A stretch of 64,000 bases of DNA from Chloroflexota bacterium (GCA_021787985.1 JAJYLG010000009.1:141-64140), one strand, 5' to 3'; positions 7,594 to 60,295 are shown, counted from the first letter of the stretch. Notes: generated by a model from the sequence alone, not told the origin. Program-made: numbers and translations.

Positions 7594-7791
7594 GGTGGTA
7601 CCTCCTTGAGCGTTGTGGCCGGGCGGAAGGCCTTCCCGGCATTTCCACTTCTCGGTCTGGAGGATAGCAGGGACCAGGAGTGTCTGTCAAGGTACTTGAT
7701 AATGACGACATCAGGGTTCTACCATTAGGTCAGCGCAAATCCCTGGCGGCTCGCGCGGTCGCGTGCTAGGCTGCCGGCAGGGGGTGGGGCG

Positions 7792-8769: not shown

Positions 8770-8794
8770 GCCGACAGACGGCCGGTGACTCGCG

Positions 8795-9166: not shown

Positions 9167-9188
9167 TCCGCGTGCTGAGGAGTAGCGC

Positions 9189-9812: not shown

Positions 9813-9861
9813 CGGCTGCCTTTGCCCGCGTGGGGAAGGGCGCCGAGAGCGTGGTGCAACG

Positions 9862-12219: not shown

Positions 12220-12277
12220 CGGCTGACCAAGGCGGGATGCTCCCCGCCGCGGGGAGTACGGACGCAGCCGGGCGCAC

Positions 12278-12403
12278 TCATTCTGCCTGGGCCACCGGCT
12301 GCCGGGCGGAGGGCTCCGTGTCGGCGTGCGCAGACGCCGTCGAGACGAACGAAGCGAGCGCGGCGGCGTGCAAGACCAGCAATAGCGCTCCGTAGCGGCT
12401 CAT
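12278..12403 (-). CDS. Small ORF encoding a signal-peptide-like 41-aa peptide (MSRYGALLLVLHAAALASFVSTASA/HADTEPSARQPVAQAE)
   Basis: AGGAG RBS 7 nt upstream. ATGA overlap with stop of the IS256 fragment ORF. Hand-mapped, low confidence. Confidence 0.25.
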   Translation of the reverse strand: MSRYGALLLVLHAAALASFVSTASAHADTEPSARQPVAQAE

Positions 12404-12933
12404 CGGTCTGCTCCTACTGCACCGCGCGCAAGGTGGGGATGACCTGGCGCAGGATTCCGACGTTCGTGCACCAGTCCGGACAGCGCGGCTGCTGCCCGGA
12501 GCACGGGTTCAGACCCGCGAAAGCCGGCGATTACCAGCGACTCCGGCGCCGCAGTGCGGCTGACACCGCTCGCCAGCAAACAGGAGGCCAAGGTGTCGTC
12601 AGTGTTGCGGAGCTTGGGCCGGGCCAGTGCCATGACCCGGGCCATGGCCTTCACGGTGAGCGGCCCGTAGCCGTTGCGCTGGCCGACGTGGCACCGCTGC
12701 CCGTGGGCGTTGCGGTCCCGGCCCAGGCACTCACTCACCTCCAGTTCCAGGCCGGCCTGCATGACCAGCCCGACGCCGAGCCGGTCCATCGTTTCCAGTA
12801 CCCCGCCGAGCTCCCGGCCAGAGGCGAAGAGCGCGTCGATCGCGACCTGGACCTGCTGCGCGGGGAATCCTCGTTGGGACACGGGCGTAGACCTCCTTCC
12901 TCGAGTTGTCAGGGACTCCGAAGGAGGGCCCAC
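12400..12933 (-). pseudogene. IS256/mutator-family transposase N-terminal fragment (no DDE domain present) - IS remnant
   Basis: LGRDRNAHGQRCHVGQRNGYGPLTVKAMARVMALARPKLRNTDDT matches the conserved N-terminal region of IS256 transposases (RNGY..R.L.T..G.L.L..P..R). The ORF stops after about 130-170 aa and no catalytic domain follows. Local GC is lower than the surroundings. Confidence 0.55.
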
Positions 12934-13058
12934 GCCCGCCGCCGGTTGCGTGCCCCTCTTGCGCCGCCCTTGGGAAGCTTCCCACCGAACGGTCCGGCCT
13001 GCTCAAGGTGGCCAAGTGTGCGAGGATTGGGGTAGGCAGCGATGTAAGGAGTCTCTCA

Positions 13059-13247
13059 ATGCCCGAGCACCCACAGGCACAAAGCGACAACCAGGCTATC
13101 CAGCAAGGGCTCGTGGAGCGTGGCCGCTCGCTGCCCGGTGTGGCAACCCTGGTGGACGTCTACGGCCGGCTCAGCGCTCATACGCAGCTGCTAGTCAACG
13201 TTCAGCCCAGCCAAGTGAAGAACGCCACCGGCGGCAACATCGGCTGA
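13059..13247 (+). CDS. Small hydrophilic ORF (62 aa) immediately upstream of, and likely co-transcribed with, the soluble S49 peptidase
   Basis: AAGGAG RBS 7 nt upstream of ATG. Stop is 3 nt before the GTG start of the peptidase. No recognizable domain. Confidence 0.4.
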   Translation: MPEHPQAQSDNQAIQQGLVERGRSLPGVATLVDVYGRLSAHTQLLVNVQPSQVKNATGGNIG

Positions 13248-13250
13248 CGC

Positions 13251-14273
13251 GTGCCGACCTGGGGCGAGATCCTCGCTGAGCTGAATGACCCGGCGAACCG
13301 CCTCCCGAACGGGACGCCGGACTTTGACCGTGTCCGGCGAAAGTACCTCGTCCATCTGCACGAGTTGACCCGACGACCGACGATCATCTACTACACCGAC
13401 TGGTTCGGCAAAGGCGGCCCAGCATCGTCGATCACCCTTGAGGACATGCAGGGGATGATGGAAGTCTGCAAGGACCTTCGTGGTCCCAACCTCGACATCC
13501 TCTTGCACAGCCCCGGCGGCAGTCCGGAGGCCACGGCCAGCCTGGTCCGCTACCTTCGCACGAAGTTCTCCCATATCCGCGCGTTCGTCCCTCTGGCCGC
13601 CATGTCCGCGGCGACGATGTGGGCGTTGGCTGGTGACGTGATCGTGATGGGCAAGCACTCGCAGCTTGGCCCGATCGACCCGCAGATGGTGGCCGGCGCC
13701 TGGACGGCACCGGCGCGGGCAATCCTACGACAGTTCGAGCAAGCGAAGGAGGAGTGCAAGGACCCCTCCCTTCTGGGGGCGTGGATGCCCATCCTCCAGC
13801 AGTACGGGCCAGCACTCATCCAGCAGTGCGAGGCCGCCGAGGCACTCGCCGTCCGCCTGGTCCGCGAGTGGCTTGAGCAGTACATGTTTGCCAGCGCACC
13901 GGACGCTGCCGCGAAGGCTGAAGCTGTGGCGGGGTACTTCGCCGACTACGAGGAGCACCGGTCACACTCGCTCGGCATCGACCGCGAACAGGCCCGCAGC
14001 AAGGGGGTGCGGATCGAGGATCTGGAGGCAAGTCAGGATCTACAGGACGCCGTGCTCAGCGTGCATCACGCCACCATGCACACGCTGCAAGGCCCCGCGG
14101 TCAAGATCATGGAGAACCATCTCGGCCGCACGTTCGCGAAGCTGACCCAGCAACTTGTCGTCCAGATGCCGATGACGGGGCCGGGTCAGGTCGGCACGTT
14201 GCCGCCGGGCATGCCCGGGCTCGGTCCGCTTGGGGTGCATGGTTCAGGACCTCCTCCCTTGGGTCAACCGTAG
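13251..14273 (+). CDS. SDH-family (serine dehydrogenase proteinase, S49/ClpP-fold) peptidase, soluble, with Pro/Gly-rich C-terminal tail
   Basis: LHSPGGSPEA and FVPLAAMSAATMWALAGDVIVMGKHSQLGPIDPQM parallel the LHTPGG and VLGPVDPQL motifs of the membrane-bound paralog at 19903..20763. No N-terminal TM. GTG start. Confidence 0.75.
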   Translation: MPTWGEILAELNDPANRLPNGTPDFDRVRRKYLVHLHELTRRPTIIYYTDWFGKGGPASSITLEDMQGMMEVCKDLRGPNLDILLHSPGGSPEATASLVRYLRTKFSHIRAFVPLAAMSAATMWALAGDVIVMGKHSQLGPIDPQMVAGAWTAPARAILRQFEQAKEECKDPSLLGAWMPILQQYGPALIQQCEAAEALAVRLVREWLEQYMFASAPDAAAKAEAVAGYFADYEEHRSHSLGIDREQARSKGVRIEDLEASQDLQDAVLSVHHATMHTLQGPAVKIMENHLGRTFAKLTQQLVVQMPMTGPGQVGTLPPGMPGLGPLGVHGSGPPPLGQP

Positions 14274-14605
14274 ACGCGCCTTGCGCTTGCGCAGCCCAAG
14301 ACGCCGGCTCAGCGGTGCGGGGCTGGATTGAAGTCCGTCGGCCGAGAACGCCAGCAGCAGACAGGAACAGGCAGCGGTCACGCGGACGGTGAGAAGTCTC
14401 CGGCCGAGTGCCAGTCCGTGCCCTTCATATTCACCGCGGCCCCTGTTGATTCCAGTCTCGGCTGCCTCTCGCCGATGGGGGAGAACTACTCCTCGGCGCG
14501 CTGGCTGGAGCTTCTCCACCGGCTGACTCTCTATGACGGGTCTTCGAGCGTTGCAGGCAGAATGCATGCTGAAGTAATGTCGTAGTGCGGTCATCGGAGG
14601 TAGCC

Positions 14606-14860
14606 ATGAAGCAGCTCACGCTCCGGGACATCCCCGAAGAGGTCGTCCAGGCGCTGCGCGAAGAGGCTGCGGAGCGCGGCCAGAGCATGAACGCGGTGGC
14701 TCGCTCGGCTCTTGCGGAGCACGTCGAGCGCCGGCGGTGGAGCCAGCGCCTGCGCGAACGGTTGCCCGTGATGGACGCCCTACGGAACCGGATCGCGCGT
14801 CGGCACGGCCGTGAGCTGGACGACAGCGCCGCCCTGGTTCGGGCAGATCGCGAGCGGTGA
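14606..14860 (+). CDS. vapB: VapB/FitA-like RHH antitoxin
   Basis: MKQLTLRDIPEEVVQALREEAAERGQSMNAVARSAL is typical of StbC/VapB-type antitoxins. GGAGG RBS. Overlaps the downstream PIN gene. Confidence 0.7.
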   Translation: MKQLTLRDIPEEVVQALREEAAERGQSMNAVARSALAEHVERRRWSQRLRERLPVMDALRNRIARRHGRELDDSAALVRADRER

Positions 14861-15306
14861 TGCCGCACGACCGCTTCGTGGTGGACGCTTCCGTTGCAGT
14901 GAAATGGGTGCTGCCCGAACCGGGATCCGGGCGGGCGCGACGGCTGCTGGAGCGTGCGGCGCGGAGCGACACGCAGTTCCTCGCACCGGACATCTTCGTC
15001 GGCGAGGTGGCGAACGTCATCTGGAAGCGCTGCCGCCTCCGTGGTGAGCTGCTCGAAGATGAGGCTCGGGAGGCGCTGTCCGCATTGCTGGGCACGCTTC
15101 CGGAGATCATCCCGAGCGCGACGCTCGTGGCGCAGGCCTTCGAGCTGGCGCTGAGCTTCCGGCGTCCGGTGTACGACTGTATCTACGTTGCGCTGGCGCT
15201 GCGCGACGGGTGTCCGCTGGTGACGTCTGACCTGGCGCTCGCCCGCTCGATGGGACCGGCCACGGGGCAAGTCATCCATCTCGACGACCTGGAGCTCGGC
15301 GGGTGA
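14857..15306 (+). CDS. vapC: PIN-domain toxin VapC
   Basis: FVVDASVAVKWVLPE N-terminus; PIN acidic residues; 149 aa. Confidence 0.75.
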   Translation: MMPHDRFVVDASVAVKWVLPEPGSGRARRLLERAARSDTQFLAPDIFVGEVANVIWKRCRLRGELLEDEAREALSALLGTLPEIIPSATLVAQAFELALSFRRPVYDCIYVALALRDGCPLVTSDLALARSMGPATGQVIHLDDLELGG

Positions 15307-16360: not shown

Positions 16361-18958
<2,598 letters not shown>

Positions 18959-19100
18959 GGCGGTACCCCTGGAGTGGCTCCAATCACAGTTTCGCGCACC
19001 TGTCGCCGCTTCCGGTACGGCTCGCGGAAGGCGGGTCGCCTGCGCGTCGCACGCGGGGAGGTCGCTCGTCGTGGCGGAGCGGCATCACGCGGACGAGGAT

Positions 19101-19902: not shown

Positions 19903-20763
19903 CTAGTCCTTGCCGCCCGCGGTCGGCCGGCGAGTGGGCGCTGGCGCGGGCCGGTACGGCACCGGCACGTACTCCACGGTTGGTCGACCACGGCCGGCCT
20001 GCGGGTAGAGGTTCATCAACTTGTAGACCTCCAGCGGCATGTCCGTGCTCACCGGCAGGCCGAGCTGCTGGGCCTCCTCCACCTTGATCGGATAGTCGTG
20101 CGTCCAGATGCCGGTGGATAGCGTCTCGGCAAGCTTCTCGGCTGCCTCCGGTGGCATGCGGTCGGTGAGCAGCTCGGCCACCATGGTGCGCACCTGGTTG
20201 ATCGCCTTGCGCGCCACGTCCGCGAGGATGAGCGTTTCGTCGTCCACCTTGTCCACGTCCTTCTGCTCGACGACGCGGACGATGGAGGTGGCGGGGAAGT
20301 TGCCGAGCTGGGGGTCGACCGGGCCGAGGACGGCGTTCTCGTCCATGACGATCTGGTCGGCGGCGAGCGCGACCAGCATTCCGCCGCTCATGGCGTAGTG
20401 GGGCACGAAGACGGTCACCGGCGCGCGGCGTCGCTGCAGGGCGTGCGCGATCTGCTCGGCCGCGATCACCAAGCCGCCGGGCGTGTGCAGCACCAGGTCG
20501 ACCGGCACGTCGGGGTCGGTGAGCTTGATGGCGCGCAGCACCTCCTCCGAGTCGTCCATGTCGATGTAACGGACGATGGGGAAGCCCAGCAAGGCCATCG
20601 TCTCCTGGCGGTGGATCAGCGTGATCACGCGGCTCCTGCGCTTCTTCTCCAGGTCATGGATGAGCCGCATCCGCGCGGCGCGCAGCATTCGTTGCCGCAG
20701 CAGCGGCTGGATCGTGACCAGGATGAGGAAGACCCAGAACAGGTCGAGGATCGAGAACGTCAT
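19903..20763 (-). CDS. SDH-family S49/ClpP-fold serine protease, membrane-anchored
   Basis: N-terminal TM (ILDLFWVFLILVTIQPLL); LVLHTPGGLVIAAEQIAHAL; FVPHYAMSGGMLVALAADQIVM; VLGPVDPQLG. Confidence 0.8.
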   Translation of the reverse strand: MTFSILDLFWVFLILVTIQPLLRQRMLRAARMRLIHDLEKKRRSRVITLIHRQETMALLGFPIVRYIDMDDSEEVLRAIKLTDPDVPVDLVLHTPGGLVIAAEQIAHALQRRRAPVTVFVPHYAMSGGMLVALAADQIVMDENAVLGPVDPQLGNFPATSIVRVVEQKDVDKVDDETLILADVARKAINQVRTMVAELLTDRMPPEAAEKLAETLSTGIWTHDYPIKVEEAQQLGLPVSTDMPLEVYKLMNLYPQAGRGRPTVEYVPVPYRPAPAPTRRPTAGGKD

Positions 20764-20784
20764 TACTCTCCCTCCAATGCGCCG

Positions 20785-21486
20785 TCACCAAGGCCAGTGC
20801 TCGTCGAGGTGGAAGTCCCCGTACGGCCGCAAGCGGATGAACACCGGCACCAGCACCGCCCCCGTGACGAAGCCGCCCACGTGCGCCCAGAATGCCACCC
20901 CGCCCGAGGCCTCGGCCGGCAGATTGGCGACGACCGTCGCCACGCCGTTCCAGAGCTGGCTCAGGAACCAGAATCCGATATACACGAGCGCCGGGATTTC
21001 GATGATCCACGGGAAAAAGAAGATGGGCACCAGCGTGATCACGTGCGACCGCGGGAACAGCAGCAGATAGGCGGCCATGACGCCGCTGATGGCGCCGCTC
21101 GCCCCGATGGTCGGCAGGGTGCTGCCGGTGTTCGCCGCGATGTGCGAAAAGTTCGCCGCGACGCCGCAGAGCAGGTAAAAGAGCGCGTAGCCGGCATGCC
21201 CGAGCCGGTCCTCCACGTTGTCGCCGAAGATGTACAGCGCCAGCATGTTCCCGATGATGTGCACCCAGCCAGCGTGAATGAAGAGCGCAGCGAAGAGCGT
21301 AGCGACCTGGCCCAGGTCCGTGTGGTCGAGGAAGCGCGCCGGCACGACGCCCAGCCGCTCGATTGTGGCGACCGCCCCGCTGCCCCGCGACAGCTCGACT
21401 CCGAACACGGCCGCGTTCGCGAGGATCAGGGCGGTGTTCACCCAGGGGAACGAACGCGCACGGACCGTGTCCTTGAGCGGGATCAC
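20785..21486 (-). CDS. Rhomboid-family intramembrane serine protease
   Basis: 6-7 TM. GASGAISGV catalytic Ser motif and AHVGGFVTG catalytic His. 233 aa. Confidence 0.85.
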   Translation of the reverse strand: MIPLKDTVRARSFPWVNTALILANAAVFGVELSRGSGAVATIERLGVVPARFLDHTDLGQVATLFAALFIHAGWVHIIGNMLALYIFGDNVEDRLGHAGYALFYLLCGVAANFSHIAANTGSTLPTIGASGAISGVMAAYLLLFPRSHVITLVPIFFFPWIIEIPALVYIGFWFLSQLWNGVATVVANLPAEASGGVAFWAHVGGFVTGAVLVPVFIRLRPYGDFHLDEHWPW

Positions 21487-21506
21487 CGGCCGTCAATCCA
21501 CGCCCG

Positions 21507-22883
21507 TCAGAAGCGGGTCAGGGCGCCCACGTGCCCGTACTCCGCCAGCCGAGCGCTGGCGTCTCCGCGAACGATGTCCAGCTCGGCGCCCTGCTCGAAG
21601 GCCCGGTCGATGAGCCGCCCGACCACATCGTCGCGTGCGACCAGCGCGGCGCCGCACAGACGACACGCGCCGCTGGCCACGGCGGTGAGGTGGCCGCAGT
21701 TGGGGCACTCCCATCCGTGATCCTCGTAGTTGGCGTTCACGATCAGCAGCATGAGTCGTTTCTCGCCGGCGGCGGCAAGCGTGTCCTCCCGGCCGCGCAC
21801 GCCGTTGGCGCCCTTGAGCGCGGCCGTGGTCACACGCTCGACGCGATCCGCCTCGACCTGCCGCTCCACGCGCTGCGCATGCTCGGTAACGAGCTGCAGC
21901 ATGCGGTCGGGCGGCGTGTCGACATCGGTGGCGATCTGGCCGCGCAACGCGTCTTGCAGTCGCGCGCTCAAGTGTGGCCGCAGCTCGGCCAGCGCCTCGC
22001 TGGGACCGCCGATGAGCAGATGGCGACAGGCGGCCTGCTCGAACAGCCGGTCGGCCGTCTCCACGGCGCGCTTCGCGTGCCAGAGGACGTGGGTCTCATG
22101 ATGGCGCTGGCGGCTCTCACCCTCGACCGACCAGCCTCCCGCCCTCGGTCGCGGGACGACCTCGTCGAGGAAAGCGCTGTAGTCCTCGATCTCGCCCATG
22201 AAGACGACGTAGATGCGCGCCTCGCGCTTGTCGAGCAGCAGCACCAGGTAGCGCTCGAACTCCTCGACGAGCACGGCCAGCGGGCGGATGAAGGGCCGGT
22301 CGGCGAATACGGCCTGGTCGCGCACGGGCACCGGCAGGCGAAACGCCCGCCACAGCCCCAGGCCCGGGCTGCTGATGATGGCGAGGCCGCGGCCGGTCCC
22401 GTCGTAGACGGTCTCCATCCAGCGCTCGACGCCCTCGGCCGCCGCTCGCGCGGCCGCGACCTTCCGGTCGGCGCGCGCCTCGATATCGCGCAGCGCTTGG
22501 CCGAGCATGGAGTGCAGCGCGTGGCGCGGCGTGTCGTAGTCGCGCCGCGTGGGCGAGAGATCGAGGTACACGCTCAGCACGGGCGACGACTCCGAGTGCA
22601 GGCCGCGCAAGTCGTCCAGCAGATCGGGCGTCGCCAGGTCGTAGCGCTTCGTGGGCACGACCTTCAGGCGTCGCAGTAGCTCTACCAGACGGTCGGCGGG
22701 CATCTGCTCCACGCCCTCGCGAGGGACGCGGCGAACGGCAGCGGTGACGCTCACGAGCTGCCTCACGCGCGTGGCGCACTCCAGGCAGTTGCGCGCGTGC
22801 GCGCTGACGCGGTCATACGTGGCCGGGTCGAGGTGCTTATCGACGAAGTCATCCAGCAGGGCGAATGCCTGGGCATGGTCCAT
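21507..22883 (-). CDS. Anti-sigma factor: N-terminal zf-HC2 anti-sigma domain fused to eRF1/Pelota-like (baeRF-type) domains 2 and 3 with GGQ replaced by GGW and a Zn-ribbon insert; no TM segment
   Basis: HARNCLEC (H-x3-C-x2-C) zf-HC2. Central region VVPRPRAGGWS...RQRHHETHVLWHAKRAVETADRLFEQAACRHLLIGGPSEALAEL aligns to eRF1 domain 2 (LPKKHGRGGQS...RKVAETAVQLF...LAGSADFKTEL). C-terminal EDTLAAAGEKRLMLLIV aligns to eRF1 domain 3 (EDTLKALEMGAVEILIV). CPNCG...CRLCG Zn ribbon. Confidence 0.65.
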   Translation of the reverse strand: MDHAQAFALLDDFVDKHLDPATYDRVSAHARNCLECATRVRQLVSVTAAVRRVPREGVEQMPADRLVELLRRLKVVPTKRYDLATPDLLDDLRGLHSESSPVLSVYLDLSPTRRDYDTPRHALHSMLGQALRDIEARADRKVAAARAAAEGVERWMETVYDGTGRGLAIISSPGLGLWRAFRLPVPVRDQAVFADRPFIRPLAVLVEEFERYLVLLLDKREARIYVVFMGEIEDYSAFLDEVVPRPRAGGWSVEGESRQRHHETHVLWHAKRAVETADRLFEQAACRHLLIGGPSEALAELRPHLSARLQDALRGQIATDVDTPPDRMLQLVTEHAQRVERQVEADRVERVTTAALKGANGVRGREDTLAAAGEKRLMLLIVNANYEDHGWECPNCGHLTAVASGACRLCGAALVARDDVVGRLIDRAFEQGAELDIVRGDASARLAEYGHVGALTRF

Positions 22884-22909
22884 GGCTTGCCTCCCGAGGC
22901 GAATCCGGA

Positions 22910-23578
22910 TCAGCGAACGCGAGTGCGTTCGCCGAAGAGGAGCTGGCGAAGGTGCTCGCGGGCGCCGCGGTAGAGGCGTCGTATCTCGTCCGGTCCCTGG
23001 CCGAAGATACGGGCGACTTCGCCGAGCGGGACGCGTTCGATGGCGACCAGCGTGAAGACACGGCGCTCGAGGCCGGGAAGCAGGTGAACGATGCGCTCGT
23101 ACTCGTCGGCGAGCGATGCGGCCTCGGTCGCCTCCGCCTCGAGCGGCGGCGGGGGTGGCGGCTCATCGCTGGAGGCGTAGGCGGGCAGGAAGTACGCCCA
23201 GAACGGACGGCCGTCGGGCGTCTCGCCCTCGCCGGACGGCGGCTGCAGGCCGCGCTCGCGACGGCCGCGGCGGACCTCGCGGTCCACCTGCTTGAGGACG
23301 AGGTGTCGTAGCCAGCCCCGCAGCGTGGCGCCCTCGGGCATGTGGTTCAGGTGGAGCATGGCCAGCAGCACCGCGTCATTCACCAGGTCGGCGGGCTCGA
23401 CCTCACCGGGGCCGAGATCGCCGAGCCGCTGGTGGGCGTCCAGCTCACGGGCGGCGAAGCGGTAGAGCGAATCAAGCTGAGGCTGGATCAGGCGCTCGAA
23501 CGCCTCGCGGTCTCCGGCGCGGGCGTCGTGCAGCAGGTGGAGGTCGTCAGCAGAGTGGAGCGCCCGGCGAGCGGCCAT
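22910..23578 (-). CDS. ECF-type RNA polymerase sigma factor (sigma-70 regions 2 and 4) with an unusually long Pro-rich linker
   Basis: Region 2 DREAFERLIQPQLDSLYRFAAR...ADLVNDAVL; region 4 LPGLERRVFTLVAIERVPLGEVARIFGQGPDEIRRLYRGAREHL. Insert PSGEGETPDGRPFWAYFLPAYASSDEPPPPPP between them. Confidence 0.8.
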   Translation of the reverse strand: MAARRALHSADDLHLLHDARAGDREAFERLIQPQLDSLYRFAARELDAHQRLGDLGPGEVEPADLVNDAVLLAMLHLNHMPEGATLRGWLRHLVLKQVDREVRRGRRERGLQPPSGEGETPDGRPFWAYFLPAYASSDEPPPPPPLEAEATEAASLADEYERIVHLLPGLERRVFTLVAIERVPLGEVARIFGQGPDEIRRLYRGAREHLRQLLFGERTRVR

Positions 23579-41761: not shown

Positions 41762-41882
41762 GGTGGGGTACCGCCCCACAGGAGTGTCAGAAGATACCCT
41801 ATAGGAGCAGGGGTATACCGCCCGATAGGGTGGGAGCGGTGGCACGAGCCACCAAACCGCAGGATGGAGGACACAGGTAGCG

Positions 41883-42302
41883 ATGGCAGCCGAACGGATG
41901 TCTATCGTCTGCTTCTCGGGCACGGTCGACAAGCTGCTGGCGGTGTCGACACTGGCCACGGGCGGCGCGGCGATGGGGCTGGAGGTCGAGCTGTTCTTGA
42001 CCTTCTGGGGGCTGGAGGCGTTCCGCAAGGGCGCGTACCAGACCAACGACCGGATCAGCGCTGATTTCGAAGACCACAAGGTCCCGATGATGCAGGCGAT
42101 GCAGGAGAAGAAGGTCCCGAACTGGCTGGACACGCTGCGCGGCGCGGCCGAGATTGGTGATGTGAAGGTCTACGCTTGCGGTATGACCATGGACCTGTTC
42201 GGCTGGAAGCTCGACGACCTCGAGGACCTGGTCAGCGACGTGATCGGCGTAGCCAGCTTCGTCGAGCGTGCGAAGGAAGGAAAGATCACGCTCTTTATCT
42301 GA
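41883..42302 (+). CDS. DsrE/DsrF-like sulfur-relay family protein
   Basis: MSIVCFSGTVDKLLAVSTLATGGAAMG...VYACGMTMDLFG. Confidence 0.7.
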   Translation: MAAERMSIVCFSGTVDKLLAVSTLATGGAAMGLEVELFLTFWGLEAFRKGAYQTNDRISADFEDHKVPMMQAMQEKKVPNWLDTLRGAAEIGDVKVYACGMTMDLFGWKLDDLEDLVSDVIGVASFVERAKEGKITLFI

Positions 42303-42319
42303 GCGGGGAGGGACCTGAA

Positions 42320-42568
42320 ATGGCAGTGCCGGAAGGAATTAGCATCAGCAAGGAGATCGACGCGCGCGGCAGCTTTTGCCCGGGGCCGCTGATGGAGCTC
42401 ATCCGCGGCGTGAAGAGCGTCCAGGTCGGCGAAGTCGTGTCGGTGCTCTCGTCCGACCCGGGATCCGCTCGCGACATCCCGGCCTGGGTGCAGAAGGCCG
42501 GTCATGAGTTCGTTGGGACCTTCCAGGAGGAAGGCTACACCCGCTTCGTGGTCCGCAAGACGCGCTGA
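42320..42568 (+). CDS. TusA-like sulfurtransferase
   Basis: IDARGSFCPGPLMEL (CPxP motif); GGGAGGG RBS. Confidence 0.8.
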   Translation: MAVPEGISISKEIDARGSFCPGPLMELIRGVKSVQVGEVVSVLSSDPGSARDIPAWVQKAGHEFVGTFQEEGYTRFVVRKTR

Positions 42569-42633
42569 GCGAAGAGCACCATGTCGAGAGAGGAGACGAT
42601 GGGGTATCGTCGGATGCCCCGTCATGGCATGCG

Positions 42634-43770
42634 ATGACCGCACGGATTGTCGTCCTCGGCGGCGGGGTAGGTGGCACGCTGGTAAGCAACCTGCTCGCGC
42701 GGAAGCTATCGCGCAGCGCGGCCGAGATCACTGTCGTGGATGCAACGGGCCGGCACATCTACCAGCCCGGCTGGCTGTACGTGCCGTTCGGGCTCGAGAA
42801 GCCGGAGAACCTGGTCAAGCGGGAGCGCTCGCTCCTGAGTCGCAAGGTGCGGCTCGTGGTGGACCGGGTGGTGAAGATCGACGCCGACGCGCGCCGGGTG
42901 GTGCTGGCCGAGGGCGCCCCGCTGGAGTACGACTACCTGGTCGTAGCGGCGGGTGCGCGGCTCGCGCCGGAGGCGGTTCCGGGTTACGAGGAGGCGGCGC
43001 ACAACTTTTACAACGCGGAGAACGCCCTGCGACTGCGGGCGGCGCTGTACGGGTTCGGAGGCGGCACGGTGGTGGTCGGCGTCGCCGACATCCCGTACAA
43101 GTGCCCGCCGGCGCCGCTCGAGTTCACGTTCATGCTCGAGGACTACCTGAAGCAGCGTGGCCTGCGCGACCGGACGAAGATCGTCTACCTCTCGCCGCTC
43201 AACCGCGTCTTCACCATCGAGACGGTGTCGCAGATGGTCACGCCGTTGCTCGAGGAGCGGGGCGTGGAGTACCGGCTGTTCTTCAACACCGAGTCGATCG
43301 ATCCAGTGGCGAAGGTGGTGCGGTCGATGGAGGGCGAGGAGGAGCAGTACGACCTCCTGGTCCTGGTGCCGCCGCACCGCGGAGCCCCGGTGGTGGTGGA
43401 GTCCGGGCTGGGCGATCAGCAGGGCTGGCTGCCCACGGACCGCGAGACGTTGCAGGTCAAGGGGCGTCCCGAGATCTACGCGCTGGGCGACGCGACCGAC
43501 CTGCCGGTGAGCAAGAGCGGCTCGGCCGCCCACTTCCAGGCCAAGGTGGTGGCCGACCGGATCGCGGACGCCGTGCACGGCAAGCAGCCCGCGGCCAAGT
43601 ACGACGGGCACGTGCTCTGCTTCCTGGAGACCGGGTACGGCCAGGCGACCCAGCTCGCCTTCGACTACGAGCACCCGCCGCAGCCGCCGCGGCCGTCACG
43701 CTTCTACCACTACGAGAAGATGCTGTTCAACCGCACCTACTGGTACATCGTGCCGCGCGGGATCGTCTGA
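42634..43770 (+). CDS. sqr: Sulfide:quinone oxidoreductase (FAD-dependent pyridine nucleotide-disulfide oxidoreductase)
   Basis: RIVVLGGGVGGT Rossmann; KCPPAPLE; 378 aa typical SQR architecture. Confidence 0.75.
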   Translation: MTARIVVLGGGVGGTLVSNLLARKLSRSAAEITVVDATGRHIYQPGWLYVPFGLEKPENLVKRERSLLSRKVRLVVDRVVKIDADARRVVLAEGAPLEYDYLVVAAGARLAPEAVPGYEEAAHNFYNAENALRLRAALYGFGGGTVVVGVADIPYKCPPAPLEFTFMLEDYLKQRGLRDRTKIVYLSPLNRVFTIETVSQMVTPLLEERGVEYRLFFNTESIDPVAKVVRSMEGEEEQYDLLVLVPPHRGAPVVVESGLGDQQGWLPTDRETLQVKGRPEIYALGDATDLPVSKSGSAAHFQAKVVADRIADAVHGKQPAAKYDGHVLCFLETGYGQATQLAFDYEHPPQPPRPSRFYHYEKMLFNRTYWYIVPRGIV

Positions 43771-43796
43771 CCGGACGACTGCCGCCTTCGCAGACC

Positions 43797-43824
43797 AGCC
43801 GCCGCCTCGCCAGGGGCGGCGGCT
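43797..43824 (+). terminator. Stem-loop AGCCGCCGCC-tcgccagg-GGCGGCGGCT followed by T-containing tract, downstream of sqr
   Basis: Perfect 10-bp stem seen in sequence. Confidence 0.45.
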
Positions 43825-43958
43825 TCGATCTGTCTACGGAATCGGGCGCACGCGAAACCTCCACGGACCCTTCGCACGGACTTCACAGGTCCTTCAAACT
43901 CCGGCTGCAGAGTGAGAGATGAGCAAGAGAGGCCGGAACAGCCGGCGGGGGTGGACGA

Positions 43959-44201
43959 ATGATGGGCTACGGATTTCCGGGGTCGTGGATGGGTGGCTGG
44001 AGCTGGTTCGGCATGGGTCTGGGGCTCGTCTTCTGGGCGCTGCTGATCGGGCTGGTCGCGTGGATCGTCGTGTCGCTGGCCCAGCGGCCCGCCGGGCCGA
44101 GCGCCCCGCGGCCGGAGGACGTGCTCCGCGCGCGTTACGCGCGCGGCGAGATCACGCGCGAGGAGTACGAGCACACGCTCCAGGTGCTGCGCCAGCCGTA
44201 A
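43959..44201 (+). CDS. SHOCT-domain small membrane protein (paralog)
   Basis: Trp/Gly-rich TM then LRARYARGEITREEYEHTLQVL. Confidence 0.6.
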   Translation: MMGYGFPGSWMGGWSWFGMGLGLVFWALLIGLVAWIVVSLAQRPAGPSAPRPEDVLRARYARGEITREEYEHTLQVLRQP

Positions 44202-44255
44202 CGGTCCGGCGACGCGCACGTGGAGAAGCGAGAACGGAACGGAGGTGACAGTACG

Positions 44256-44933
44256 ATGACCAGGTCGAAGATGCTCAAGATCGTGGCGTTCGGGGTGGCG
44301 CTGGTCGGCGTGATCGCGTTGCCGGCAGTGGTAGCGGCGACGGGCGCCGGACGGCCGAGCGCCGCGGGTGGCGCAGCGCAGGCGACGGCCCAGCCGGTGC
44401 GGGCTGACCGGGTCGAGATGCGGGACTTCAGCTTCGACCCCGGGGTCATCCGCGTGGAGCCCGGCACCACGGTGACGTGGACGAACACAAGCCAGACCCC
44501 GCATAACGTGGTCGCGAACGACGGCTCGTGGAAGTCGGACCTGCTGCGACCGGGCGACACATACCAGCACACGTTCAGCACCGCGGGTGTGTACGAGTAC
44601 CGTTGCACGCTGCATGCGGGCATGGTCGGCGCGGTGGTGGTGGGCGACACGACGCCGGCGCCCGCGCTTGGGCCGAGCGGCCAGCCCGGCCCGCAGGGCG
44701 GCTACGGCGCGATGTACCAGTGGATGGAGCAGAACGCGCCCGAGATGTGGCAGTGGATGCAGCAGAACCACCCCAACGGCATGGGATCGGGCATGACGCA
44801 GAACTGCTCACGCTTCGATCGGGGCGCTGGCAGCGGTCCGACCTCTTCGACCCCGCCGAGCTCCGGCGCAAACGGCAGCCGATCCGGGTTCGGACCGGGT
44901 GGCATGATGGGAGGTGGAGGGCCCTGGCGCTGA
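44256..44933 (+). CDS. Cupredoxin (type-1 blue copper protein, plastocyanin/pseudoazurin-like) with Gly/Met-rich tail
   Basis: Signal peptide; HNVV...YEYRCTLHAGM supplies His, Cys, His, Met copper ligands. Confidence 0.7.
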   Translation: MTRSKMLKIVAFGVALVGVIALPAVVAATGAGRPSAAGGAAQATAQPVRADRVEMRDFSFDPGVIRVEPGTTVTWTNTSQTPHNVVANDGSWKSDLLRPGDTYQHTFSTAGVYEYRCTLHAGMVGAVVVGDTTPAPALGPSGQPGPQGGYGAMYQWMEQNAPEMWQWMQQNHPNGMGSGMTQNCSRFDRGAGSGPTSSTPPSSGANGSRSGFGPGGMMGGGGPWR

Positions 44934-45018
44934 GCCGACCGGCGACGAGTGGCTGGTGGAGCAGCAGGGCGGGTCTTGCGGCCCGCCCTGCCACGTGTGG
45001 CGCGCAGGAGCGCGGGTG

Positions 45019-45714
45019 ATGGCGCGAGTGCTGGTGGTGGACGACGAGCCCCGCATCGTGGACGCGGTGCGGCTCTACCTCGAGCGAGACGGTCACGAGG
45101 TGCTGACTGCCGGCGACGGCGAGGAAGCACTGCGGCGCTTCGCGGACGAGCGGCCGGACGCGGTGGTGCTCGACCTGATGCTGCCCAAGCTCGACGGGTA
45201 CGAGGTCTGCCGGCGCATCCGCGCTCGCTCGCAGGCGCCGGTGATCATGCTGACCGCGCGGGCGGAAGAGGTCGACAAGCTGGTGGGGCTCGAGCTCGGC
45301 GCGGACGACTACGTCACGAAGCCGTTCAGCCCGCGCGAGCTCGCCGCGCGCCTGCGGGCCGTGCTGCGCCGCGCCCAGCCGCCGGCCACCGAGGGCGTGT
45401 CCGAGCGGAGCATCGTTGGTGATCTGGAGGTGGACCGGGCGGCGCACGAGGCGCGCTGCGGAGGCCGCGTCCTGGACCTGACGCCGACCGAGTTTCGCAT
45501 CCTGGCAACCTTGGCGGCCAGCCCGGGCCGGGTGTTCACCCGCGAGCAGCTCCTCGAGCAGGCGCTCGGCGAGCACGCGCTGGGCGGCTACGACCGCACC
45601 GTCGACGCGCACATGAAGAACCTGCGGCGGAAGCTGGCATCCAACGGGAGTGCTTCGGGCTGCCGCATCACCACGGTGTTCGGCGTGGGCTACAAGCTGG
45701 AACGAACGGCATGA
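45019..45714 (+). CDS. OmpR-family response regulator
   Basis: RVLVVDDEPRI...VLDLMLPKLDG receiver; winged-helix C-terminus. Confidence 0.9.
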   Translation: MARVLVVDDEPRIVDAVRLYLERDGHEVLTAGDGEEALRRFADERPDAVVLDLMLPKLDGYEVCRRIRARSQAPVIMLTARAEEVDKLVGLELGADDYVTKPFSPRELAARLRAVLRRAQPPATEGVSERSIVGDLEVDRAAHEARCGGRVLDLTPTEFRILATLAASPGRVFTREQLLEQALGEHALGGYDRTVDAHMKNLRRKLASNGSASGCRITTVFGVGYKLERTA

Positions 45715-46856
45715 AGGCCATGGACCGGCTGGGCGTGAAGCTTGCCGCCGCCTTCGCGGCGGTGTCGCTGATCGGCGTGGCGGTGGTGGCGGCATTCGCC
45801 GGCGTGGCCACGGAGCACAACTTCAACCGCTACGTCGCCGACATTCGTGCCGGAGGGATGCACGGCATGGGGATGACGGCCGACGCGATGGCCGCGATGA
45901 TGGGCGCGCCGCGGCAGCAGTTCCTGAGCGACCTGCGGACGTCGCTGCTCTTCGCGGCGCTGGTGGCGGTCGGGGTGGCGGTGGTGCTGGGCGTGGTGCT
46001 GGCGCAGACGATGACCGGCCCGCTGCGCCGCCTGACGCTCGTGGCGCATCGCGTGGCGGCCGGCGACCTGGCCCAACGCGTCCCGGTGACGGGTGGCGAC
46101 GAGATCGCCGACCTGGGCACGGCCTTCAACACCATGGCCGCGGCGCTGGCGCGGGCGCAGGAGGAGCGCCAGGACCTCGTGGCGGACATCGCGCATGAGC
46201 TGCGAACGCCCCTCGCCGTCCTGCAGTCGCACGTGGAGGCGATGCAGGACGGGTTGGTGCCGGCGGACGCCGAGCATCTCGCGACTCTGCACGAGGAGAC
46301 GGCGCTGCTCAGCAGGCTCGTCGAAGACCTGCGCGTCCTGTCATTGGCGGACGCTGGGCGGCTCGAGCTGCGGCGTGAGCCGCTCGATCTGGTGGCGGTG
46401 GCGCGCGCCACGCTGGAGGAGTCGGCGTCGCTGGCGGCTGGCCGCGGCGTGACGTTGCGGTTGGAGGATGGCGGCGCGGCCCTGCCGGTCCTGGCGGACG
46501 CGGGGAGGCTGCGCCAGGTGCTGCACAATCTGCTGAGCAACGCGCTGCGCTTCGCGCCGGCCGGCACGGACGTGACGGTCTCGCTGCGCCGCGAGGACAG
46601 CCGGGGGGTGTGCACGGTGGCGGATCAAGGGCTCGGCATCCCCTCCGAGGACCTGCCACGGGTGTTCGAGCGGTTCTATCGAGCGGATCGCTCGCGGGCG
46701 CGCGCCACGGGCGGCAGCGGGCTGGGCCTCGCCATCGTGCGGCGACTCGTCGAAGCGCATGGCGGGACGATCGTCGCGGAGAGCCCGCCGGGGCAGGGCG
46801 CGCGCTTCACGTTCCGACTGCCGCTGGCGGCGGGTGCGGGAGAGGGTTTCGATTGA
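45711..46856 (+). CDS. Sensor histidine kinase (2 TM, HAMP, HisKA, HATPase_c)
   Basis: IAHELRTPLAV H-box; N, G1, G2 boxes (GGSGLGLAIV). ATGA overlap with the response-regulator gene. Confidence 0.85.
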   Translation: MKAMDRLGVKLAAAFAAVSLIGVAVVAAFAGVATEHNFNRYVADIRAGGMHGMGMTADAMAAMMGAPRQQFLSDLRTSLLFAALVAVGVAVVLGVVLAQTMTGPLRRLTLVAHRVAAGDLAQRVPVTGGDEIADLGTAFNTMAAALARAQEERQDLVADIAHELRTPLAVLQSHVEAMQDGLVPADAEHLATLHEETALLSRLVEDLRVLSLADAGRLELRREPLDLVAVARATLEESASLAAGRGVTLRLEDGGAALPVLADAGRLRQVLHNLLSNALRFAPAGTDVTVSLRREDSRGVCTVADQGLGIPSEDLPRVFERFYRADRSRARATGGSGLGLAIVRRLVEAHGGTIVAESPPGQGARFTFRLPLAAGAGEGFD

Positions 46857-58733: not shown

Positions 58734-59243
58734 TCAGCCGCGGGCCGACGGCCGGGGCGCCGGACACGCGCCGACGAGCGACCTCGCGCGCAATCGCAGC
58801 GTCCACAGCAGGAGCAGGAGGGATGCGACACCGATGTAGATCTGGGCGGGGGCGAACCAGGTCAGCGCGCCGCTGGTGCCCAACAGCAGGACCGCCAACT
58901 GGTTGCAGGTCGGGCAGCCGACCGCCAGGAAGGAGAGCACACCGCCCGCGACGACGCGCCGCTCGCCGCCGTCCCGAGCAGGCAGCAGGTACGTGGCGGC
59001 GGTGAGGCCCACCAGCAGCCCGGTCAGAGCCCAGATGACGTAGTCCTGAGGTCGCGGCGGGACGGCGCGGCCGAAGAGCGGGTTGGGGATGAGGACAGTC
59101 GGCACGCCAATGACCACCAGCGTCGCGACGCCGGCTGCCGCCCCGGCGAGCCACGTGCGTGGGCGGAAGAGCCGCAGCGCGTGCCACATCTCGCGGAAGG
59201 CCGTCGCGGGCCGGCCGCCGGCCGCGCGCTCCAGCGCTGTCAT
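58734..59243 (-). CDS. Membrane protein, hypothetical (4 TM, CPTCN motif)
   Basis: 169 aa hydrophobic ORF upstream of the phosphoesterase. Confidence 0.5.
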   Translation of the reverse strand: MTALERAAGGRPATAFREMWHALRLFRPRTWLAGAAAGVATLVVIGVPTVLIPNPLFGRAVPPRPQDYVIWALTGLLVGLTAATYLLPARDGGERRVVAGGVLSFLAVGCPTCNQLAVLLLGTSGALTWFAPAQIYIGVASLLLLLWTLRLRARSLVGACPAPRPSARG

Positions 59244-59413
59244 GCCGACCTCCGTGGCGCCGAGCAGGCGGCGCCCGTCATCCAGTGTACGCAGCCGCGG
59301 CGGGGTGAGGTGCGGCCCCGGGCGGCTCGGAAGACCGCGTGGCGTGGGTTGCAGCCGGGGCGACCGCTATCATTCAGGAGGCGGCGGAGACCGCATCGGA
59401 GCCGGAGGTGAGC

Positions 59414-60295
59414 ATGGTGGGAGAGTTCCGCGTCGACAGCTATCGGTTCTTGCCGCGGAGCTTCCGCCCCGCGTTCGAATCCTTCCCCGAGCAGCCCGTC
59501 ACCGTCTCAGCGGCGCGGCCGCGCGTCCCGCTGCCGCAGGCGCGCGTGGCGCTGTTGACGTCGGCCGGCCTCTATCTCGAGGGGCGGCAGCAGCCGTTCG
59601 ACCTGGAGCGAGAGCGGCGCGAGCCGCGATGGGGCGATCCGACGTTCCGTGAGATCCCGCGCGACGCGCGGCAGGACGAGATCGGCATGGCGCACCTTCA
59701 CCTCAGCGCGGACGACGTCTTGCAGGACTTCAACATCGCCCTGCCGATCGACGCGTTCGCCGCGTTGGAGCGCGAGGGCGCATTCGGTTCGCTGGCGCAG
59801 CGGCACTACTCGTTCATGGGCTACCAGGGCGAGTCGACGCGCGCGTGGGAAGAGGAGCAGGGGCCCGAGCTGGTTCGCCGCCTTGAGGAGGACCGAGTCG
59901 ACCTGCTGATACTCGCGCCCGCCTGACCGGACTGCTGCAAGAACGTGCCCGTGCTGGCACGGACGGTCGAGACGGCAGGCATCGCCACGGTCATCGTCAC
60001 GCCGATGCCGGAGATCGCCGAGCGGTTCCGCCTGCCGCGCATCGTGGGAGTGGAGTTCCCGTTCGGCCATGCGTTCGGCATGGCGGGAGACCGTGCGATG
60101 CAGCAGCGGGTCGCGCGGGCGGCCCTGGCGCTCTACGAGCAAGTGGACCTGCCGGCGCGGGTCGACCTGGAGATCCCGTGGCCGGTCGAGCAGTCGGTCG
60201 CCTACCGGGCTTGGCAGCCGTCCGAGCCGTCGCCGGTCGTCCGCTACCGGTTGGAGCAGGCGGCGCGGAGACGGGAGGGGCAAGGGGCGGGCTGA
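59414..60295 (+). CDS. GRDB-family (glycine/sarcosine/betaine/proline reductase protein B-like) protein with in-frame TGA at 59924..59926: candidate selenoprotein (or interrupted gene)
   Basis: Two six-frame ORFs share one frame, separated only by TGA: ...DLLILAPA-TGA-PDCCKNVPVLARTVETAGIATVIVTP.... A CCGTG-CTGG-CACGG hairpin begins about 21 nt 3' of the TGA (bacterial SECIS position). Family resemblance to GrdB/PrdB-type selenoproteins (U followed by Cys). Confidence 0.5.

What the first reader, a model, noticed from the sequence alone, without database searches (positions are those of the whole stretch)
59414..60295. Candidate selenoprotein: GRDB-family ORF with in-frame UGA and downstream hairpin
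Two adjacent same-frame ORFs are separated only by TGA (…LLILAPA-U-PDCCKNVPVLART…). The combined about 293-aa protein resembles the glycine/betaine/proline reductase protein B family, whose members are frequently selenoproteins with Sec followed by Cys. A CCGTG-CTGG-CACGG stem-loop starts about 21 nt downstream of the UGA, which is the position of bacterial SECIS elements. Selenoprotein genes are routinely mis-annotated as two ORFs or pseudogenes.
Basis: partly seen in the sequence, partly recalled or inferred. Interest (0 to 1): 0.6.

Follow-up and report, generated by a model that had tools for sequence, protein, structure and literature searches.

The report
Split selenoprotein gene, orphan PrdB-like
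The two adjacent ORFs are one 293-residue gene whose internal UGA almost certainly encodes selenocysteine; it belongs to an environmental selenoprotein family catalogued as "proline reductase PrdB" since 2005, so it is a correct but ordinary find.

Summary
Window 59414-60295 (+) is one reading frame interrupted only by TGA at 59924-59926, and both halves have coding composition. The selenoprotein reading is strongly supported by comparison. All 80 of the best genomic relatives, from several phyla, carry TGA at exactly this column, followed by conserved P-D-C-C-x-N-V-P-V-L-A-R. Rare full-length homologues carry Cys there. The part downstream of the TGA shows purifying selection. Of 159 informative codon columns, only the four at +6 to +9 after the UGA never vary synonymously, and they lie in a hairpin that meets the published bacterial SECIS consensus. 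Three Cys homologues have lost that hairpin. The family-conserved hairpin is 59944-59949/59956-59961 with loop CGUGCU.

The protein belongs to the GrdB/PrdB superfamily. It fails the curated cut-offs for true PrdB and GrdB and has no prdA or grd neighbour in the window or in 83 other loci, so its substrate is unknown. No selA, selB, selD or tRNA-Sec lies on the available contig, and the rest of the genome could not be checked. The family has been catalogued since the Sargasso Sea and GOS selenoproteomes. Verdict: a new member of a known kind, of low to moderate interest.

The parts
59404..59410 (+). Shine-Dalgarno-like GGAGGTG, ending 3 nt before the ATG (the GGAGG core is 5 nt from it)
   Evidence: Read directly from the sequence. 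The function is inferred. The ATG at 59414 is the start that aligns with the homologues' N-termini, M-x-VDS[FY][KR][FY]LPRS.
59414..60295 (+). Complete coding sequence of a 293-residue PrdB-like selenoprotein, including the terminal TGA at 60293-60295
   Evidence: Public gene calls split it into P0001 (170 aa, 59414-59926) and P0121 (116 aa, 59945-60295).
59924..59926 (+). In-frame UGA, predicted selenocysteine codon (residue U171)
   Evidence: TGA stands at the same alignment column in 80 of 80 related genomic loci. Full-length homologues have Cys (TGC) there.
59924..59938 (+). Redox motif U171-P-D-C174-C175 (UxxC plus an extra Cys)
   Evidence: Motif conservation is shown. The second Cys is at least 90% conserved across the wider superfamily. 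In the AF2 model of Cys homologue P0005, the Sec-equivalent Cys168 lies in the loop after strand 161-165, and Cys171 starts helix 171-184.
59944..59961 (+). Family-conserved SECIS-type hairpin: stem 59944-59949 pairs with 59956-59961 (C-G, G-C, U-A, G-C, C-G, C-G); loop 59950-59955 is CGUGCU
   Evidence: This is the RNAalifold consensus of 77 sequences. 95% of cells are paired, and one U-A to C-G compensatory change occurs. Synonymous entropy is zero only at codons +6 to +9. As an isolated hairpin it scores -10.4 kcal/mol. It meets all four published bSECIS criteria.
59949..59962 (+).
   Evidence: It is present in the window and favoured in the window's own predicted ensemble together with a window-specific lower stem. 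Its fifth pair forms in only 7 of 77 relatives. As an isolated hairpin it is less stable than the conserved one in 77 of 77 sequences. [quoted passage not shown]
59945..60295 (+). Artefactual 'hypothetical protein' ORF, called from the internal GTG (Val178 codon)
   Evidence: P0121 is in the public collection as a separate 116-aa protein. A further 222 similar C-terminal fragments of about 110-120 aa exist.

Best explanation
Window 59414-60295 encodes a single 293-residue selenoprotein. The UGA at 59924-59926 is recoded as selenocysteine (U171) by the standard bacterial route. A hairpin in the coding sequence, starting 17 nt after the UGA, would recruit SelB carrying Sec-tRNA(Sec) to the ribosome. 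That hairpin has stem 59944-59949/59956-59961 and apical loop CGUGCU, which begins 23 nt after the UGA.

The protein is a short, stand-alone paralogue of the GrdB/PrdB 'selenoprotein B' superfamily. It carries a U-P-D-C-C motif at a strand-loop-helix junction. The most likely chemistry is a selenol/thiol redox cycle: nucleophilic attack by Sec171, then resolution by Cys174 or Cys175 into a selenenyl-sulfide, then re-reduction by a thiol system.

It is probably not the B subunit of a D-proline or glycine reductase complex, because no pyruvoyl partner (prdA, grdE) or grdA gene accompanies it anywhere. Its substrate is unknown.

What is shown: one reading frame; a conserved TGA; a Sec/Cys pair at this column; translation of the downstream half; an RNA-level constraint; and superfamily membership. 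What is inferred: SelB dependence, the redox mechanism, and independence from PrdA.
For: 1. The frame is single and both halves look coding.
2. Of 521 protein homologues, almost all are 165-173 aa and stop exactly at this column. The few full-length ones have C-P-D/G-C-C.
3. All 80 best genomic loci carry TGA there, never TAA or TAG. They come from Dehalococcoidia and other Chloroflexota, Acidimicrobiia, Binataceae, Acidobacteriota, Dormibacterota-like and proteobacterial MAGs with 46-74% GC. The TGA is followed by P[DAS]CCxN[VA][PS]V[LM]AR.
4. Nucleotide diversity downstream of the UGA is 0.29/0.24/0.52 at codon positions 1/2/3. That is a coding pattern, at least as constrained as the N-terminal half.
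5. Of 159 informative codon columns, only +6 to +9 (AAC GTG CCC GTG) have zero synonymous entropy. Column +10 uses only YTG, +11 only GCR, and +12 is 68% CGT, although CGT and GCA are rare elsewhere in the gene.
6. These bases form the RNAalifold consensus hairpin. It has one compensatory U-A to C-G change and meets the bSECIS consensus for loop size, stem length, G at loop position 2, 23-nt spacing and -10.4 kcal/mol.
7. Three Cys homologues (L083-L085) break those codon choices.
8. TGA is an ordinary stop for 16 of 34 strong ORFs in the window, so the genetic code is standard.
9. Pfam GRDB scores above its cut-off. The match ends at residue 168 and model position 345 of 347, just before U171. 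NCBIfam PrdB, GrdF, GrdH and TIGR01918 align collinearly across the column.
10. The AF2 model of a Cys homologue (pLDDT 93) places the U/C-x-x-C at a strand-loop-helix junction.
11. No neighbouring gene is conserved among 84 loci.
Against: - No selA, selB or selD (Pfam scans; gene table of L001) and no tRNA-Sec lies in the 64-kb window or the 4.9 kb beyond it. The rest of the genome is unavailable, so the Sec-decoding trait of this organism is assumed, not shown.
- No Rfam family matches the hairpin.
- The single-sequence fold is not significant.
- In this member's own predicted ensemble, the register-shifted hairpin B dominates, so which hairpin acts here is unresolved.
- Most stem pairs are invariant. 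Covariation therefore rests on one compensatory change in three related sequences.
- The redox mechanism and the independence from PrdA are inferences. A partner could be encoded elsewhere in the genome.
Confidence: 0.85

Rival explanations
1. It is the genuine selenoprotein B subunit of a D-proline reductase, or another Stickland-type reductase, whose PrdA/PrdC (or Grd) partners are encoded elsewhere in the genome.
For: The best NCBIfam match is PrdB TIGR04483 (E = 1e-35), collinear over model positions 24-223 of 238. JGI names many homologues 'D-proline reductase (dithiol) PrdB'. The literature lists this environmental family as 'proline reductase PrdB', motif UxxC.
Against: The score of 123 bits is far below the equivalog cut-off of 300. 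No prdA- or grd-type gene appears in the window. No neighbour at all is conserved across 84 loci, whereas the literature describes prdB-prdC and grdA-grdB as operons. The hosts are largely Chloroflexota and Acidimicrobiia MAGs from soil and water, not amino-acid fermenters.
Confidence: 0.1
2. The UGA terminates translation, and the locus makes two separate polypeptides: 170 aa, plus 116 aa re-initiated at GTG 59945.
For: This is how gene callers annotate it here and in hundreds of relatives.
Against: The six codons between the UGA and the GTG (P-D-C-C-K-N) are among the most conserved in the protein and lie in the same frame. Full-length Cys homologues are colinear across the junction. The stop is always TGA, never TAA or TAG, in 80 of 80 loci. 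No ribosome-binding site precedes the GTG (sequence). The confident AF2 model of the Cys homologue (pLDDT 93, pTM 0.93) is continuous across the junction.
Confidence: 0.03
3. It is a pseudogene or an assembly or sequencing error: a TGC-to-TGA change in a Cys-type gene.
For: A single nucleotide separates TGA from TGC, and the contig is a metagenome assembly.
Against: A second assembly carries the same TGA. TGA stands at this column in 80 of 80 relatives. The downstream half is under purifying selection. The SECIS-type codon constraints are intact here, whereas they have decayed in true Cys forms.
Confidence: 0.01
4. The UGA is read through, but not as selenocysteine: for example as near-cognate Trp or Cys, or under a reassigned code.
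For: The flanking context Y-UGA-C is, from general knowledge, a weak termination context. The Sec machinery was not found on the contig.
Against: TGA serves as the normal stop for about half the strong ORFs in the window, including this gene's own end. Homologues carry Cys at the column, the hallmark Sec/Cys pair. A conserved hairpin matching the SelB-dependent SECIS consensus lies at the canonical distance.
Confidence: 0.01

Closest known systems
Environmental 'Proline reductase PrdB' selenoprotein family (pfam07355, motif UxxC) of the Sargasso Sea and GOS selenoproteomes (PMC1088965, PMC2398784)
   Same: It has the same Pfam domain and the same UxxC motif. Sec forms outnumber Cys forms in both: 42 to 1 in the Sargasso Sea and 235 to 110 in GOS, and here 113 of the top 120 protein hits and 80 of 80 loci. 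It is found in non-fermenting environmental bacteria. This is most probably the same family.
   Different: I could not align the published sequences, so identity of the clade is inferred from domain, motif and abundance. Those papers label it by homology as proline reductase and do not address the missing PrdA partner.
D-proline reductase subunit PrdB (TIGR04483; Clostridium sticklandii, C. difficile)
   Same: It is homologous over nearly the whole length of PrdB (model positions 24-223 of 238). Size is similar (about 240 against 293 aa). The motif is Sec-x-x-Cys (literature). A selenol nucleophile with a resolving Cys is expected.
   Different: It scores 123 bits against a cut-off of 300. It has no prdA (pyruvoyl proprotein) or prdC, prdD, prdE neighbours. 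It has an extra Cys (U-P-D-C-C), clade-specific invariant motifs (ERERxEPxWGDP, HLH) and N- and C-terminal extensions.
Glycine/sarcosine/betaine reductase protein B (GrdB, GrdF, GrdH; PF07355, TIGR01917, TIGR01918)
   Same: The C-terminal half of GrdB (model positions about 212-411) aligns with residues 31-232. The UGA falls where the Pfam GRDB model ends. The motif is UxxC.
   Different: It lacks the roughly 210-residue N-terminal half of GrdB. Its scores of 35-52 bits compare with cut-offs of 600-800, and it is below the TIGR01918 subfamily cut-off (41 against 65). No grdA, grdC, grdD or grdE lies nearby.
Bacterial SECIS elements (consensus model summarised in PMC13188914)
   Same: It is a hairpin inside the coding sequence with a 6-nt apical loop, a 6-7 bp stem, G at loop position 2 followed by U, a loop starting 23 nt after the UGA, and -10.4 kcal/mol.
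   Different: Its 18-nt core is unusually invariant across phyla and GC contents, because it overlaps strongly conserved residues N-V-P-V-L-A-R. A competing register-shifted hairpin is possible in this member. No SelB binding data exist.

Membership tests
Bacterial selenoprotein gene (UGA recoded to Sec) | In-frame UGA conserved at the same column in orthologues | tested here: met
   80 of 80 loci carry TGA, never TAA or TAG. Protein homologues are truncated at the same column.
Bacterial selenoprotein gene (UGA recoded to Sec) | Cys-containing homologues aligned with the UGA (a Sec/Cys pair) | tested here: met
   P0002-P0007 have C-P-D/G-C-C, and the codon is TGC in L083-L085. Distant homologues mostly have C-P-x-C.
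Bacterial selenoprotein gene (UGA recoded to Sec) | The sequence downstream of the UGA is translated (coding signature and amino-acid conservation) | tested here: met
   GC3 is 0.91. Codon-position diversity is 0.29/0.24/0.52. Downstream motifs are conserved.
Bacterial selenoprotein gene (UGA recoded to Sec) | A bSECIS hairpin meeting the consensus: loop 3-9 nt, stem 4-16 bp, G in the first two loop positions, 16-37 nt from UGA to loop, MFE of -7.5 kcal/mol or lower | tested here: met
Hairpin 59944-59961 has a 6-nt loop CGUGCU, a 6-bp stem, 23-nt spacing and -10.4 kcal/mol. The criteria are from PMC13188914.
Bacterial selenoprotein gene (UGA recoded to Sec) | selA, selB, selC (tRNA-Sec) and selD present in the same genome | not testable with these tools
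   None lies in the window or the adjoining 4.9 kb. Only a 76.5-kb contig of this organism is accessible. The Sec-decoding trait is documented in Chloroflexi, Actinobacteria and Acidobacteria generally.
GrdB/PrdB 'selenoprotein B' superfamily (Pfam PF07355) | Pfam GRDB domain above the gathering score | tested here: met
   36 bits against 22, E = 6e-9, residues 31-168.
GrdB/PrdB 'selenoprotein B' superfamily (NCBIfam TIGR01918 subfamily) | Score above the curated subfamily cut-off | tested here: not met
   41.4 bits against 65.45.
D-proline reductase PrdB (TIGR04483 equivalog) | Score above the equivalog cut-off | tested here: not met
   123.4 bits against 300.
D-proline reductase PrdB (TIGR04483 equivalog) | Genomic association with prdA (pyruvoyl proprotein) and prdC, prdD, prdE | tested here: not met
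   No such gene lies in the window. No gene is conserved within 6 kb on either side across 84 loci.
D-proline reductase PrdB (TIGR04483 equivalog) | Sec in a UxxC motif | tested here: met
   U171-P-D-C174. The family motif UxxC is as listed in the literature.
Glycine/sarcosine/betaine reductase protein B (GrdB, GrdF, GrdH) | A protein of about 430 residues with the N-terminal half, and scores above the curated cut-offs | tested here: not met
   It is 293 residues and aligns only to model positions of about 212-430. It scores 35.6, 52.4 and 49.3 bits against cut-offs of 602, 800 and 775.
Glycine/sarcosine/betaine reductase protein B (GrdB, GrdF, GrdH) | Operon with grdA, grdE, grdC, grdD | tested here: not met
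   These genes are absent from the window and from the related loci.

The most novel reading that the evidence does not exclude
The U-P-D-C-C clade may not be a proline reductase subunit at all. It may be a distinct, functionally uncharacterised stand-alone selenoenzyme. It is almost always Sec rather than Cys. It carries a near-invariant SECIS shared across Chloroflexota, Acidimicrobiia, Binatota, Acidobacteriota and others. It has no pyruvoyl partner, no conserved operon and no solved structure for its fold. Its substrate and its reductant would then be open questions for one of the most abundant environmental selenoprotein families.
Probability: 0.55. Interest if true: 0.45.

Novelty: new member of a known kind. 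Interest (0 to 1): 0.25.

Why it matters
In practice, this is one more case of a real selenoprotein gene split by automatic gene callers. They produce a 170-aa 'GRDB' fragment and a 116-aa 'hypothetical protein', and the same error recurs in hundreds of public records. Merging them corrects the annotation, and the gene marks the host as a likely Sec-decoding organism.

In scientific terms, the family has been in selenoproteome catalogues since 2005, so the existence of the gene will not surprise a specialist. Two points remain mildly interesting. The name 'proline reductase' is probably a misnomer for this orphan clade, whose function is unknown. And its SECIS is conserved at the nucleotide level across phyla, which makes it a clean test case for SelB-SECIS recognition outside Proteobacteria and Firmicutes.

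Tried and rejected
- **Rfam.** The gathering-threshold search of the whole window and the permissive E-value search of 59850-60050 gave no SECIS or other credible family.
- **ARAGORN.** It found no tRNA in the window and no tRNA-Sec in any fetched locus.
- **Single-sequence folding.** It is not significant (z = -1.24), so the hairpin alone is not evidence.
- **Other selenoprotein candidates in the window.** A scan for other stops flanked by coding-like sequence found only two further same-frame pairs. The TGA pair at 20785 (-) is two separate genes; the pair at 44199 is a TAA, which cannot encode Sec, and was not followed up.
- **Neighbourhood conservation.** Across 84 loci nothing is conserved beyond the gene itself and its antisense or off-frame shadow ORFs. 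This rejects an operon-based functional assignment.
- **Pfam annotation.** Scans of about 40 window ORFs plus the gene table of L001 found no SelA, SelB, SelD, PrdA or Grd proteins.
- **Promoter and terminator scan.** Nothing was found.
- **Cluster look-up.** The taxon of the 71%-GC source organism remains undetermined.
- **Literature.** I found no functional study of orphan PrdB-like proteins.

Full report
**1. Observation**

Window 59414-60295 (+) translates in one frame to 293 residues. The only interruption is TGA at 59924-59926 (...LLILAPA*PDCCKNVPVLART...), and the frame ends at TGA 60293-60295. A GGAGGTG motif ends 3 nt before the ATG. Homologues begin at the equivalent position, so 59414 is the right start.

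Both halves have the composition of real genes in this 71%-GC genome. GC3 is 0.88 upstream and 0.91 downstream, with GC2 about 0.5. A scan of the window for stops flanked by coding-like sequence on both sides found only two others. One, at 20785 (-), is two separate genes that happen to share a frame: a rhomboid-like membrane protein followed by a second ORF with its own start. The other, at 44199, is a TAA, which cannot encode Sec, and I did not examine it further.

Taken alone, the region does not fold better than shuffled sequence (z = -1.24). So the hairpin is present but is not evidence by itself.

The window is part of a 76.5-kb metagenome contig (ENA ERZ27233565). A second assembly (Logan SRR13170411) has the same TGA. 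I could not tell whether the two assemblies are independent. Public gene calls split the locus into a 170-aa protein (P0001) and a 116-aa protein (P0121) that starts at an internal GTG.

**2. Is the UGA a sense codon?**

A protein search returned 521 homologues. Nearly all of the best 120 are 165-173 aa and cover only the first 56-58% of the query. They end at exactly this column (...LAP[AGSV]). A handful are full-length (279-296 aa), and nearly all of them have Cys at the column, in C-P-D/G-C-C. A search with the C-terminal part returned 222 fragments of about 110-120 aa, mostly labelled 'hypothetical protein'.

At the DNA level, 405 relatives were found among species-representative genomes. 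In all 80 best loci the codon at this column is TGA, never TAA or TAG. It is followed in frame by P-[DAS]-C-C-x-N-[VA]-[PS]-V-[LM]-A-R. These loci come from Dehalococcoidia and other Chloroflexota, Acidimicrobiia, Binataceae, Acidobacteriota, Dormibacterota-like and a few proteobacterial MAGs, with 46-74% GC.

Downstream of the UGA, pairwise nucleotide diversity is 0.29, 0.24 and 0.52 at codon positions 1, 2 and 3. That is the signature of a translated sequence under purifying selection. This half is slightly more conserved than the N-terminal half.

TGA also ends 16 of 34 strong ORFs in the window, so the genetic code is standard. Across the wider superfamily (1140 cluster representatives at E <= 1e-3), distant full-length homologues mostly have C-P-x-C here. 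The second Cys is at least 90% conserved. The Sec/Cys pair criterion is therefore met.

**3. The RNA element**

I built a codon alignment of 73 Sec-type genes and measured synonymous codon entropy at 159 columns with a conserved amino acid.

- The mean entropy is 1.28 bits.
- Only four columns have zero entropy. They are consecutive: +6 to +9 after the UGA (AAC, GTG, CCC, GTG).
- The next three columns are restricted. Leu is only YTG. Ala is only GCA or GCG. Arg is 68% CGT, although GCA and CGT are rare codons elsewhere in the same genes.

RNAalifold on 77 distinct sequences predicts one helix, alignment columns 21-26 with 33-38. In the window this is 59944-59949 paired with 59956-59961, with loop 59950-59955 (CGUGCU). 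With the A-U pair that CGT adds, 95% of cells are paired. The U-A pair is replaced by U-G in 28 sequences and by C-G (both sides changed) in three related sequences. Slid controls give 14-58% pairing.

This hairpin meets the published bacterial SECIS consensus, which requires a loop of 3-9 nt, a stem of 4-16 bp, G within the first two loop positions, 16-37 nt between the UGA and the loop, and an MFE of -7.5 kcal/mol or lower (PMC13188914). Here the loop is 6 nt, the stem is 6 bp, the loop has G at position 2 followed by U, the spacing is 23 nt, and the energy is -10.4 kcal/mol.

Four of its pairs are invariant, but the fifth forms in only 7 of 77 sequences. As an isolated hairpin it is less stable in all 77 sequences, with a mean of -4.0 against -10.8 kcal/mol. 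I therefore regard the conserved hairpin as the family's SECIS and leave the acting register in this member open.

As a control, three Cys-type genes have TGC at the column and break the constraints:

- L083: TCA CCG GTC CTG GCT.
- L084: ACC TTG GGC GTG CTC GCG AGG.
- L085: CTT GCT CGA.

This is what one expects if the constraint serves Sec insertion. Rfam has no matching family. The base before the UGA is a pyrimidine in 76 of 77 sequences, and the base after it is always C.

**4. What the protein is**

Pfam GRDB (PF07355) matches residues 31-168 to model positions 214-345 of 347, at 36 bits against a cut-off of 22. The model ends just before U171.

NCBIfam gives its best match to D-proline reductase PrdB (TIGR04483): 123 bits, collinear over model positions 24-223 of 238. 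The equivalog cut-off is 300. GrdF, GrdH and GrdB models score 35-52 bits against cut-offs of 600-800 and match only their C-terminal halves. The TIGR01918 subfamily model scores 41 against 65. So the protein is a member of the GrdB/PrdB superfamily but not a bona fide PrdB or GrdB.

No prdA, prdC, grdA, grdE or related gene occurs in the window. Clustering all ORFs within 6 kb on either side in 84 loci found nothing conserved except the gene itself. None of the window's neighbours recurs in any other locus. By contrast, prdB-prdC and grdA-grdB are described as operons (PMC13188914).

An AF2 model of the Cys homologue P0005 is confident (49% identical to the window protein, same CPDCCKNVPVLAR motif; pLDDT 93, pTM 0.93). 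It places the Sec-equivalent Cys168 in the loop after strand 161-165, with Cys171 opening helix 171-184. This is the usual geometry of a redox-active C/UxxC centre, which is my inference. Neither sequence search nor Foldseek found a solved structure of this fold.

**5. Mechanism**

The recoding step most likely works as follows. SelB carrying Sec-tRNA(Sec) is recruited by the hairpin that starts 17 nt after the UGA, and it inserts Sec171. This is inferred from the match to the SECIS consensus and from established knowledge of bacterial Sec insertion.

For catalysis I take PrdB and GrdB as the analogy. There the selenol attacks a substrate carbon, and a neighbouring Cys resolves the selenoether into a selenenyl-sulfide, which thiols then re-reduce. 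I propose a Sec171/Cys174(/Cys175) selenol-thiol cycle. The pyruvoyl partner that activates the amino acid in the Stickland enzymes is not linked to this gene anywhere. So the substrate is unknown, and the label 'proline reductase' is probably a misnomer for this clade. That is an inference, held at about 0.55.

**6. Sec machinery**

The window and the further 4.9 kb of the contig contain no selA, selB, selD or tRNA-Sec. That is uninformative for a genome of several megabases, and the remainder could not be accessed. The Sec-decoding trait is documented in Chloroflexi, Actinobacteria and Acidobacteria (PMC1794560). The pattern in sections 2 and 3 is hard to explain without that trait.

**7. 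Novelty**

'Proline reductase PrdB' (pfam07355, UxxC) was the third most abundant selenoprotein family in the Sargasso Sea selenoproteome, with 42 Sec genes and 1 Cys homologue (PMC1088965). It was among the top families in GOS, with 235 Sec and 110 Cys (PMC2398784). NCBI already names relatives 'glycine/sarcosine/betaine reductase selenoprotein B family protein'.

This locus is therefore a new, mis-split member of a known selenoprotein family. Interest is low to moderate. What remains of interest is the unknown function of the orphan clade and its unusually invariant SECIS.

Noticed in passing
window 58734-59243 (-): The divergently transcribed neighbour is a 169-aa predicted membrane protein with a C-P-T-C motif. 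It has no Pfam family at E <= 1e-5. It is not found next to the gene in any of the 83 other loci, so a functional link to the UxxC protein is not supported.
   Followed up: partly
window 19903-21492 (-): Two ORFs share a frame and are separated only by TGA 20785-20787, with coding-like composition on both sides. By reading the translation, they are a rhomboid-like membrane protein followed by a separate protein with its own start. This is not a selenoprotein.
   Followed up: yes
window 7105-12219 and 16361-19084: There is a heat-shock cluster: HSP20 (-), DnaJ, a MerR/HspR-type regulator and a ClpB-like AAA+ protein (+). A second ClpB-like paralogue sits 4 kb away on the other strand.
   Followed up: no
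window 21507-23162 (-): A 551-aa ORF carries a bacterial archaeo-eukaryotic release-factor-like domain (baeRF family 10, with a weaker hit to the Actinobacteria/Chloroflexi VLRF1 family). This may hint at the taxon of the unnamed 71%-GC host.
   Followed up: no
window 41829-44933 (+): A possible sulfur-oxidation module: a DsrE-like protein, an FCSD/sulfide-dehydrogenase-type flavoprotein and a cupredoxin, followed by a two-component system (44908-46856).
   Followed up: no
window 59921-59929, and loci L003-L082 at the equivalent site: The base immediately 5' of the Sec-UGA is a pyrimidine in 76 of 77 family members (Ala is GCC or GCT, never GCG or GCA). The 3' base is always C (Pro codon). The Glu codon at +15 is 75% GAA, although GAG dominates elsewhere. 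These may be additional context constraints on recoding.
   Followed up: partly
protein collection hits P0123-P0241 and P0008-P0120: Hundreds of public records annotate this family as two ORFs: an N-terminal 'GRDB/PrdB' fragment of about 166-173 aa and a C-terminal 'hypothetical protein' of about 110-120 aa that starts at an internal GTG or ATG. This is a systematic mis-annotation.
   Followed up: partly
window 12200-15250: A stretch with lower coding signal and slightly lower GC (about 0.685). By reading the ORF list only, it holds a Clp-fold-like protease ORF (13251-14273) and a PIN/VapC-like ORF (14857-15306). It may be a small mobile or accessory island.
   Followed up: no
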